NCBI RefSeq assembly: GCF_009914755.1
Contig: NC_060937.1
Source of the DNA: the human T2T-CHM13v2.0 reference genome, Homo sapiens
Direction: 5' to 3' (one strand)
DNA length: 64,000 nt
Both the position numbers and the translations under genes were made by a program. The notes under the pieces are model-generated. The model did not search any database and had not been told where the DNA came from. It saw only the letters and a list, made by a program, of their open reading frames with translations. Below, in pieces: positions 45,960 through 46,318 of the stretch. The stretch's first letter is position 1, and every line of letters starts with the position of its first letter.

Positions 45960-46318
45960 TTTTTTTTTTTTTTTTTTTTTTTTTTTTTTTTTTTTTTTGA
46001 GAGGGAGTGATTGGGATACTTTTTCTTCTTCTTTTTTTGAGAGCGTCTCGCTCTTGTCGCCCAGGCTGGAGTGCAATGGCGTGATCTCGTCTCACTGCAA
46101 CCTCTGCCTCCCAGGTTCAAGTGATTCTCCTGCCTCAGCCTTCCGAGTAGCTGGGACTACAGGTACGCACCACCATATCCAGCTAATTTTTGTATTTTTA
46201 GCAGAGACGGGCTTTCACCGTGTTGGCCAGGATGGTCTTGATTTCTTGACTTCGTGATCCCGACCGCCTTGGCCTACCAAAGTGCTGAGATTACAAGCAT
46301 GAGCCACCGTGCCCAGCT
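45960..46318 (-). mobile_element. Chimeric Alu: AluSc-like body with a 3' tract and flank copied from the Alu at 15780-16087
   Basis: AluSc-type left arm (gtcaagaaatcaagaccatcc). Two A-tails separated by gtatcccaatcactccctctc. TSD core attcactg (45952 and 46321). Confidence 0.95.

What the first reader, a model, noticed from the sequence alone, without database searches (positions are those of the whole stretch)
45960..46318. Alu carrying the tail and unique 3' flank of a different Alu 30 kb away (donor and recipient in one window)
Seen: the minus strand reads ...ccattgcactccagcctgggcgacaagagcgagacGCTCTC-aaaaaaagaagaagaaaa-AAGTATCCCAATCACTC-cctctc-A39. The Alu at 15780 ends ...ccattgcactccagcctgggtgacaagagcgagatGCTCTC-aaaagaagaagaaaaa-AAGTATCCCAATCACTC. 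They share the odd gctctc end, the GAA tail and 17 nt of flank (46005-46021 = 16071-16087, the right-hand TSD variant plus 3 nt beyond). The left arms differ (Sc-like versus Sq/Sx-like), the recipient keeps its own TSD, and the tract rejoins a normal Alu end (ACTCc.tctc-An) through ACTC microhomology. Inference: one-sided ectopic gene conversion/SDSA between inverted Alus with microhomology exit, or an RT template switch between two Alu RNAs. It mimics an Alu 3' transduction. Two CpGs kept in the copy but decayed in the donor imply an old event.
Basis: partly seen in the sequence, partly recalled or inferred. Interest (0 to 1): 0.85.

Follow-up and report, generated by a model that had tools for sequence, protein, structure and literature searches.

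The report
Alu patched from neighbouring Alu's flank
An old Alu repeat on human chromosome 13 carries a roughly 77-base patch copied from the end, tail and unique flank of another Alu 30 kb away, most likely the scar of a DNA break repaired from the wrong copy; it is a tidy example of a known process, not a new one.

Summary
Alu B (46318-45960, minus strand) contains the last ~43 nt of Alu A's body, A's GAA-interrupted tail and 17 nt of A's unique 3' flank. Alu A lies at 15779-16087 on the plus strand.

- **Uniqueness:** the 17-mer occurs exactly twice in the whole 3.1-Gb assembly, at these two sites.
- **Direction:** transfer ran from A to B, because 14 of the 17 nt are A's own target-site duplication.
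- **Chimera:** B's 5' 237 nt belong to a different Alu lineage, and A/B mismatches run right up to the patch edge.
- **Boundaries:** the patch spans 46081-46005 (77 nt). It enters within Alu homology and leaves through a 4-nt ACTC overlap into B's own end (ACTCCCTCTC-A39). Both elements keep their target-site duplications.

The best reading (about 0.7) is repair of a break in B after B inserted, by ectopic gene conversion that overran the homology and closed by microhomology. Two results favour this over reverse-transcriptase template switching. The donor lies 30 kb from the recipient (chance about 2e-5). The patch also looks younger than its surroundings (0 non-CpG differences in 56-73 sites against 9 of 109; p about 0.01-0.03).

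This is a new member of a known kind, of modest interest. Primate orthologues, which I could not reach, would decide the timing.

The parts
15764..15777 (+). Left target-site duplication of donor Alu A (AAGTACCCCAATCA)
   Evidence: It matches 16071-16084 at 13 of 14 positions.
15779..16054 (+). Body of donor Alu A. The left arm is of the CACCTGAGGTCAGGAGTT..AGACCAGCC type, which I recall as Sx-like. The body ends with the unusual GAGATGCTCTC.
   Evidence: The nearest genome relatives L014-L022 are of the same left-arm type.
16012..16087 (+). Donor stretch copied into B (76 nt): the last 43 nt of the Alu body, the A4-GAAGAAG-A7 tail, and the flank AAGTATCCCAATCACTC. The first two A of that flank 17-mer are the last two of the A7 run.
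   Evidence: In the genome search with B's 3' 96 nt, this was the best non-self hit, at 95% over query positions 5-81.
16071..16084 (+). Right target-site duplication of A. It is native target DNA of the A locus, which fixes the direction of transfer as A to B.
16216..16219 (+). First TTTT downstream of A, a likely RNA polymerase III stop. A read-through transcript of A would therefore contain the whole donor stretch. This bears only on the RNA-based rivals.
   Evidence: for the sequence. That T4 acts as a Pol III terminator is general knowledge, recalled.
46321..46328 (-). Left target-site duplication of recipient Alu B (CAGTGAAT)
46082..46318 (-). B's own 5' part (237 nt). The left arm is of the CACGAAGTCAAGAAATCAAGACCATCC type, which I recall as Sc-like. 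The last A/B mismatches are at 46083 and 46082.
   Evidence: The best non-self genome matches are 87-90% identical and of the same type.
46005..46081 (-). Patch copied from A, 77 nt at most. The first A-specific base is T at 46076, so it is at least 72 nt. It comprises Alu 3' end 46081-46039, inner tail 46038-46022 and flank copy 46021-46005.
   Evidence: It differs from A by 2 CpG transitions and two changes in the A/G tail.
46005..46008 (-). ACTC, a 4-nt microhomology shared by A's flank (..AATCACTC|TGGG) and the normal Alu end (GAG-ACTC-CGTCTC). This is the exit junction.
   Evidence: Other window Alus end ..GACTCCATCTC or ..GACTCTGTCTC.
45999..46004 (-). CCTCTC, the remnant of B's own Alu terminus. 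With ACTC it reads ACTCCCTCTC, 9 of 10 matches to the usual ACTCCGTCTC.
   Evidence: The chance of a 6-mer within 1 mismatch is 0.0046.
45960..45998 (-). Uninterrupted A39 tail of B
   Evidence: Genome-wide, TCTC followed by at least 39 A occurs 1,955 times, against 191,542 times for TCTC followed by at least 15 A.
45952..45959 (-). Right target-site duplication of B (CAGTGAAT)

Best explanation
Alu B inserted as an ordinary Sc-like element with its own tail and target-site duplication. Later, a DNA break or stalled fork near B's 3' end was repaired from the wrong template, the inverted Alu A about 30 kb away on the same chromosome.

The proposed sequence of events is as follows.

1. The broken end entered A through Alu homology.
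2. Repair synthesis ran through the last ~43 nt of A's body, through A's GAA-interrupted tail, and 17 nt into A's unique flank.
3. The new strand was released and joined to the other side of the break through a 4-nt ACTC overlap with B's own terminal ACTCCGTCTC.

The result replaced about 35-40 nt of B with 77 nt from A. There was no crossover.

**Shown:** the copy itself, its direction, its two junctions, the intact flanks of both elements, and the uniqueness of the flank.

**Inferred:** that the template was DNA, that the event came after B's insertion, and the order of entry and exit. SDSA with end-joining termination and replication-fork template switching (MMBIR-type) give the same product and cannot be told apart here.
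For: - **Origin of the patch.** The flank 17-mer occurs only at these two sites in 3.1 Gb. With B's 3' 96 nt as query, A is the best non-self hit (95% over query 5-81), and no other listed hit extends past query position 75, so none covers the flank copy (query 65-81). Only 40 of 883 candidates were scored.
- **Direction.** 14 of the 17 nt are A's target-site duplication. B carries the right-hand T variant plus the next 3 flank bases.
- **B is a mosaic.** Its 5' 237 nt are of another lineage. 7 of 7 distinct nearest genome relatives share its left-arm type. 0 of 7 have ACAAGAG and 1 of 7 has CATTG, both of which the patch carries.
- **Sharp edge.** A and B differ at 14 of 109 right-arm positions upstream (9 non-CpG), the last two at 46083 and 46082. 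In the patch they then differ at 2 of 73, both CpG.
- **Patch younger than its surroundings.** Non-CpG differences are 0 of 56-73 against 9 of 109 (Fisher p = 0.012-0.029). P(0) is 0.002-0.008 if the patch were as diverged as the neighbouring right arm.
- **Proximity.** Donor and recipient are about 30 kb apart. A donor placed at random in the genome would lie that close with probability 1.9e-5. Published work reports Alu interlocus conversion falling off with distance, with mean tracts of 118 bp (10.1101/241356, section 3 part 1 read and passages; PMC8230782, passage).
- **No crossover.** Both pairs of target-site duplications are intact.
- **Mechanism shown experimentally.** Homologous invasion followed by microhomology-mediated rejoining, where copying overruns the homology, has been shown in mammalian reporter cells (PMC5104497, abstract and passages).
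Against: - No outgroup or population data could be reached, so the pre-event state of B (a plain Sc-like 3' end) is inferred, not seen.
- The age contrast rests on few sites. With all differences counted and the tail left out, it is only p = 0.054-0.092. The ratio of patch to neighbour divergence is 0.21-0.27, with a 95% interval of 0.03-0.97.
- 30 kb is beyond the ~10 kb range quoted for most Alu-Alu conversion (PMC8230782, passage).
- Only 37 of 2,551 detected great-ape events lay outside the gorilla lineage (10.1101/241356), so such events are rare on the human line.
- The uninterrupted A39 tail on an element about 10% diverged is unexplained by this model. It would fit a more recent reverse-transcription event better.
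- The whole donor stretch lies inside A's predicted Pol III read-through transcript, so an RNA template is not excluded.
Confidence: 0.7

Rival explanations
1. The chimera was made at insertion. L1 reverse transcriptase primed on the poly(A) of an Sc-like Alu RNA and copied about 10 nt. It then jumped through ACTC microhomology onto a read-through transcript of Alu A, copied the flank, tail and ~43 nt of body, and jumped back in register onto an Sc-like Alu RNA.
For: - One pair of target-site duplications and a long poly(A) bracket the whole composite.
- The donor stretch lies within A's predicted Pol III transcript, which would end at TTTT 16216-16219.
Against: - It needs two switches.
- Nothing in retrotransposition places donor and recipient 30 kb apart (chance 1.9e-5).
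- The patch would then be as old as B, yet it shows 0 non-CpG differences from A in 56-73 sites, where 8-9% is seen next door (P about 0.002-0.008).
Confidence: 0.08
2. A later retrotransposition attempt occurred in B's old A-tail. Reverse transcription started on an Alu RNA and switched to A's read-through RNA. The cDNA was then resolved by recombination with the resident genomic Alu B. The product has a genomic 5' part and a new 3' part and tail.
For: - De novo Alu inserts that finish by recombining with a nearby genomic Alu, giving a chimeric Alu with a genomic 5' end and a new 3' end, were recovered experimentally: six inserts in PMC3415434 (supporting-figure legend passage).
- The model would explain a patch younger than B.
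- It would also explain a long pure A39 tail, which is in the top ~1% of TCTC-A15-or-longer ends.
Against: - It still needs a template switch at ACTC, because A's genomic flank continues TGGGAG rather than CCTCTC-poly(A).
- The proximity of donor and recipient stays unexplained.
- That class is described as lacking direct repeats, whereas B's duplication is intact. This could only happen if priming occurred inside the old tail.
Confidence: 0.08
3. RNA-templated break repair. A break near B's end was repaired by copying a nascent read-through transcript of neighbouring Alu A. Synthesis was primed from the ACTC overlap and resolved by Alu homology, without L1 target-primed insertion.
For: - The donor stretch lies wholly inside A's predicted transcript.
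- The junction pattern, microhomology on one side and homology on the other, fits equally well read in this direction.
- A locally produced RNA could favour a nearby recipient (inference).
Against: - No feature of the sequence requires RNA.
- Whether this old, CpG-decayed Alu A is transcribed is unknown.
- DNA-templated conversion is the commoner, documented route.
Confidence: 0.06
4. Assembly artefact or chance resemblance.
For: None was found. It could not be tested with reads.
Against: - Both loci sit in unique sequence, and the 17-mer has exactly two genome hits.
- The patch is in register, is bounded by a microhomology junction, and differs from the donor at 2 CpG sites and in tail run lengths. 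A mis-join of reads would not produce that.
- Chance is excluded.
Confidence: 0.02

Closest known systems
Non-allelic (interlocus) gene conversion between neighbouring Alu elements (PMC8230782; bioRxiv 10.1101/241356)
   Same: - A short contiguous tract (72-77 nt here; a mean of 118 bp is reported) is copied from a nearby Alu into another.
- The recipient keeps its position and its flanks.
- The result is a hybrid of two subfamilies.
- Donor and recipient lie within 100 kb.
   Different: Here the tract runs out of the repeat, through the donor's tail and 17 nt into its unique flank, and closes by 4-nt microhomology instead of homologous annealing. The flank names the donor outright, whereas the published scans infer donors statistically. 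In three literature searches I found no description of an Alu conversion that exports donor flank. That is not proof that none exists.
[quoted passage not shown]
   Same: One end invades by homology, copying continues past the region shared with the second end, and rejoining uses microhomology.
   Different: That work used engineered I-SceI reporters, sister-chromatid templates and kilobase tracts in cultured mouse cells. This is a natural germline product with an ectopic template 30 kb away and a tract of under 80 nt.
Chimeric Alu formed when a new Alu cDNA recombines with a resident genomic Alu (PMC3415434)
   Same: The product has a resident 5' part and a foreign 3' part with a long tail.
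   Different: The foreign part here is not a plain Alu RNA 3' end. It carries another locus's flank joined to an Alu terminus, which would need an extra template switch. The donor also lies next door.
3' transduction by L1 and SVA (recalled; cited in the reference list of PMC4666360)
   Same: Unique sequence from downstream of a source element sits between an old tail and a new poly(A), inside one pair of target-site duplications.
   Different: In a transduction the whole element descends from the source. Here the 5' 237 nt do not. The flank also ends in a remnant Alu terminus, not directly in poly(A).
Polymorphic Alus with adjacent non-Alu sequence mapping elsewhere, attributed to template switching or templated break repair (PMC4666360, discussion passage)
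   Same: An Alu plus neighbouring unique sequence is duplicated by a route other than ordinary target-primed insertion.
   Different: Those are whole inserted segments at new sites. This is an in-register patch inside an existing Alu.

Membership tests
Alu-Alu interlocus gene conversion | The recipient keeps its genomic position, flanks and target-site duplication | tested here: met
   CAGTGAAT lies on both sides of B.
Alu-Alu interlocus gene conversion | A contiguous tract matches the donor, with ordinary divergence outside it | tested here: met
   2 of 73 differences inside the patch against 14 of 109 just upstream. The last mismatches are at 46083 and 46082.
Alu-Alu interlocus gene conversion | An identifiable donor lies nearby in cis | tested here: met
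   A is about 30 kb away and inverted. The flank 17-mer is unique to the two loci in the genome.
Alu-Alu interlocus gene conversion | The ancestral, unconverted state is seen at the orthologous locus of an outgroup | not testable with these tools
   No primate genomes or human population assemblies were available.
Alu-Alu interlocus gene conversion | The tract is confined to the homologous sequence, with termination by annealing | tested here: not met
   The tract continues about 34 nt beyond the Alu body into the tail and unique flank, and ends at the 4-nt ACTC. The event is therefore filed as conversion with non-canonical, microhomology termination.
Alu 3' transduction (retrocopy of a read-through transcript of A) | The whole element descends from the source element | tested here: not met
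   The left arms are of different lineages. There are 31 difference events in 126 compared left-arm and linker positions. B's nearest relatives differ in type from A's.
Alu 3' transduction (retrocopy of a read-through transcript of A) | The transduced flank is followed directly by a new poly(A) | tested here: not met
   The flank is followed by CCTCTC, an Alu-terminus remnant, before A39.
L1 reverse-transcriptase template-switch chimera | One target-site duplication pair and a poly(A) bracket all parts | tested here: met
   This feature is also expected under post-insertion repair.
L1 reverse-transcriptase template-switch chimera | All parts have the same age, that of the insertion | tested here: inconclusive
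   The patch appears younger (non-CpG p = 0.012-0.029; all differences p = 0.03-0.09). This leans against membership, but the counts are small.
Microhomology-only templated insertion (TMEJ/MMBIR type) | Microhomology of a few bases at both junctions | tested here: not met
   The 5' junction lies in register within long Alu homology. Only the 3' junction is a 4-nt microhomology.

The most novel reading that the evidence does not exclude
The patch is a natural germline footprint of transcript-templated break repair. On this reading, a nascent Pol III read-through RNA of Alu A, made 30 kb away on the same chromosome, served as the template that mended a break at the end of Alu B. Synthesis was primed at the ACTC overlap and resolved through Alu homology. 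The copied stretch lies entirely within A's predicted transcript (Alu start to TTTT at 16216), and nothing in the sequence excludes an RNA template.
Probability: 0.06. Interest if true: 0.75.

Novelty: new member of a known kind. Interest (0 to 1): 0.3.

Why it matters
Donors of Alu-to-Alu sequence exchange can almost never be named, because Alus are so alike. Here the exported 17-nt flank identifies the donor with certainty. One product also shows both the homologous entry and the microhomology exit.

The locus is therefore a clean natural illustration that homology-initiated repair between dispersed repeats can overrun the repeat and move unique DNA. It also warns that such patches can mimic a 3' transduction or confuse subfamily calls and age estimates.

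The same signature could be searched for genome-wide to map ectopic repair with known donors. The signature is an inner tail, then a unique k-mer that maps beside another Alu, then a second Alu terminus. As a single locus in a gene desert, it has no evident functional consequence.

Tried and rejected
- **Whole-element copy of A (true 3' transduction).** Rejected, because the 5' 237 nt of B belong to another lineage.
- **Direction B to A.** Rejected, because the shared flank is A's target-site duplication.
- **Shared CATTG and ACAAGAG as private markers of A.** Rejected as such. Each occurs in 3 of the 12 other window Alus. They remain informative only because B's own lineage lacks them (1 of 7 and 0 of 7 distinct relatives).
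- **A recent retrocopy of some other old Alu as the source of B's 5' part.** No near-identical copy was found. The best non-self hit was 90%, but only 40 of 7,455 candidates were scored, so this is weak negative evidence.
- **Mapping the 5' edge by subfamily-diagnostic sites alone.** This failed, because the right arms of the two lineages are nearly the same. The edge was placed from mismatch density instead.
- **Supplement of PMC8230782 searched for chr13.** Of 4 occurrences, 2 were shown (chr13:75665532 and chr13:23126156 in that paper's coordinates). Neither is near this locus, and the other two were not seen.
- **One literature search** failed on term syntax and was re-sent in corrected form.
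- **Subfamily names (Sc, Sx, Sq, Y)** are recalled. No repeat library was available to assign them.

Full report
**1. What is there**

Read on the minus strand, the Alu at 46318-45960 (B) has a full body ending ...GCCATTGCACTCCAGCCTGGGCGACAAGAGCGAGAC-GCTCTC. After the body come, in order:
- an inner tail A7-GAAGAAG-A3;
- the 17-mer AAGTATCCCAATCACTC;
- CCTCTC;
- an uninterrupted run of 39 A;
- CAGTGAAT, which also precedes the element at 46328-46321.

The Alu at 15779 on the plus strand (A) ends ...GCCATTGCACTCCAGCCTGGGTGACAAGAGCGAGAT-GCTCTC, then A4-GAAGAAG-A5, then the same 17-mer. Its flank then continues TGGGAGCTCC.

The 17-mer matches at 16071-16087(+) and 46005-46021(-) and nowhere else in the window, even with 2 mismatches. 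None of 100 shuffles gave a match. The assembly that holds the window could be searched: 3,117,275,501 bases in 24 contigs, with the window on contig 13 at 59,830,001-59,894,000. There the 17-mer has exactly two matches, these two; the reversed control pattern had one. As a control, I took the 17 nt downstream of each of the 14 full-length Alus in the window. Only A's recurs in the window at up to 1 mismatch (1 of 14).

**2. Direction**

A is flanked by AAGTACCCCAATCA (15764-15777) and AAGTATCCCAATCA (16071-16084), which agree at 13 of 14 positions. This is its target-site duplication, so the sequence existed at the A locus before A arrived. B carries the right-hand T variant plus the next three flank bases, CTC. 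The transfer therefore ran from the A locus to B.

**3. B is a mosaic, and where the patch begins**

*Lineage of the two elements.* In the pairwise alignment, the left arms differ by 31 events in 126 compared positions, including lineage-type blocks: CACCTGAGGTCAGGAGTTTAAGACCAGCC in A against CACGAAGTCAAGAAATCAAGACCATCC in B.

- I searched the genome with B's 5' 270 nt. The best non-self matches were 87-90% identical (40 of 7,455 candidates scored). The nine loci fetched are seven distinct elements, because L008, L009 and L010 are near-identical copies. All seven share B's left-arm type.
- At the 3' end of these seven, 1 of 7 has CATTG and 0 of 7 have ACAAGAG.
- A's nearest relatives are of the CACCTGAGG...ACCAGCC type.
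- The names Sc-like and Sx-like are recalled. No repeat library was available.
- CATTG and ACAAGAG are not private to A. Each occurs in 3 of the 12 other window Alus. They are foreign to B's own lineage, so they still mark the patch.

*The edge.* In the right arm upstream of the patch, A and B differ at 14 of 109 compared positions (9 non-CpG, 5 CpG). The last differences are at B 46083 and 46082. From 46081 to 46005, the only substitutions are two CpG transitions: C in B at 46059 and 46045, T in A at 16034 and 16048. The inner tail also differs by two small changes. These are either A-run lengths of 7 and 5 against 4 and 7, or a one-unit shift of the GAAGAAG block plus 1 nt.

The patch is thus 77 nt at most (46081-46005; 76 nt in A, 16012-16087). 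It is at least 72 nt, counted from the first A-type base, T at 46076.

*Genome check.* With B's 3' 96 nt as query, A is the best non-self hit (95% over query 5-81). No other listed hit extends past query position 75, so none covers the flank copy at query 65-81 (40 of 883 candidates scored).

The exact 20-mer spanning GAGACGCTCTCAAAA is unique to B. At up to 1 mismatch there are 180 hits, mostly GAGACTCTCTC. A few among the 100 listed also read GAGACGCTCTC, so that ending is rare but recurrent.

**4. The exit junction**

After ...AATCACTC, the A locus continues TGGG, whereas B continues CCTCTC-A39. ACTCCCTCTC matches the usual Alu terminus at 9 of 10 positions. Other Alus in the window and among the fetched relatives end GACTCCATCTC or GACTCTGTCTC. 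A random 6-mer would lie within one mismatch of the expected six bases with probability 0.0046, and here it abuts the poly(A).

The junction therefore shares exactly four bases, ACTC. The base before them differs: C in A's flank, G in the Alu end.

**5. Mechanism**

The product has one junction inside long homology, in register, and one junction at a 4-nt microhomology in unique DNA. Both elements keep both target-site duplications, so nothing was exchanged reciprocally and the intervening 30 kb was not inverted.

This is the expected product of repair started by homologous invasion of an ectopic repeat, with synthesis overrunning the shared sequence and closure by end joining. That sequence of events has been shown in mammalian reporter cells, with obligatory use of microhomology or nucleotide addition at the second end (PMC5104497, abstract and passages). 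A replication-fork template switch would give the same product.

Two observations favour a DNA-level, post-insertion event over reverse-transcriptase template switching.

- **Position.** Retrotransposition does not place a copy near its source. A random donor would lie within 30.3 kb of the recipient with probability 1.9e-5. Alu interlocus conversion, by contrast, is reported to fall off with distance. A range of about 10 kb is quoted in PMC8230782 (passage). An exponential decline, pairs tested within 100 kb, and a mean tract of 118 bp (median 109) are given in 10.1101/241356 (section 3 part 1 read, and passages).
- **Age.** If the chimera arose when B inserted, patch and donor should have diverged about as much as the neighbouring right arms (8.3% non-CpG). 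Instead there are 0 non-CpG differences in 56-73 sites. P(0) is 0.002-0.008, and Fisher p is 0.012-0.029.

The age test is modest. Counting all differences, p is 0.030 with the tail included and 0.054-0.092 with it left out. The divergence ratio of 0.21-0.27 has a 95% interval of 0.03-0.97. The reference used for B's own divergence was also chosen for closeness to B, which makes B look younger. That bias is conservative for this test: 11 non-CpG substitutions in 239 positions after collapsing an alignment artefact at columns 62-67, which is my own reading.

**6. What speaks the other way**

- The copied stretch lies within A's predicted Pol III read-through transcript, since the first TTTT is at 16216-16219. 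RNA templates are therefore not excluded.
- The A39 tail is unusual. TCTC followed by at least 39 A occurs 1,955 times in the genome, against 191,542 for at least 15 A, which is about 1%. This is not stratified by age. A long pure tail fits a later reverse-transcription event better than an old insertion.
- A class of de novo Alu inserts that resolve by recombining with a resident genomic Alu is documented (six inserts; PMC3415434, passage). That route would still need a template switch at ACTC and leaves the proximity unexplained.
- Conversion on the human line appears rare in one scan: 37 of 2,551 events lay outside gorilla (10.1101/241356).

**7. Comparison and novelty**

This is an Alu-Alu ectopic conversion that fails one defining feature of the ordinary kind, a tract confined to homology. 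It matches non-canonical HR termination instead. It is not a 3' transduction, because the element as a whole does not descend from A.

Related reports exist. Polymorphic Alus with adjacent non-Alu sequence mapping elsewhere were attributed to template switching or templated break repair (PMC4666360, discussion passage). In three searches I found no description of an Alu conversion that carries the donor's flank into the recipient. The searches were narrow, and bioRxiv supplements were closed.

I rate this a new member of a known kind. It is useful as a donor-tagged example and as a search template, not as a new mechanism.

**8. Limits**

- No primate or human population sequences, no reads and no repeat library were available.
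- The timing, the fixation status and the assembly support remain untested.

Noticed in passing
window 45960-45998 (-): Alu B carries an uninterrupted A39 tail, although its 5' part is only 87-90% identical to its best genome matches. Genome-wide, TCTC followed by at least 39 A occurs 1,955 times against 191,542 for at least 15 A. The preferred model does not explain this. Possible causes are slippage during repair synthesis or a polymorphic expansion.
   Followed up: partly
L008 (contig 21, ~10.525 Mb), L009 (contig 14, ~5.982 Mb), L010 (contig 13, ~13.460 Mb): Three of B's best genome matches are the same Alu with the same flanks. They differ by a single base among the three and lie on three acrocentric short arms, which indicates a shared segmental duplication.
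   Followed up: no
window 46081-46076 (-), about Alu position 238-243: The 5' edge of the patch falls next to Alu positions 242-256. [quoted passage not shown] This may be coincidence. The position numbering is approximate.
   Followed up: no
window 16055-16072 (+) and 46038-46020 (-): The donor and copied tails have the same GAAGAAG core, displaced by one GAA unit (A4...A7 against A7...A5). This suggests microsatellite-type slippage in one or both copies since the transfer.
   Followed up: no
genome-wide: About 180 Alus match AGAGCGAGACGCTCTCAAAA within one mismatch, most reading GAGACTCTCTC. That is a recurrent two-base-shorter Alu terminus, from which A's GCTCTC end differs by one base.
   Followed up: no
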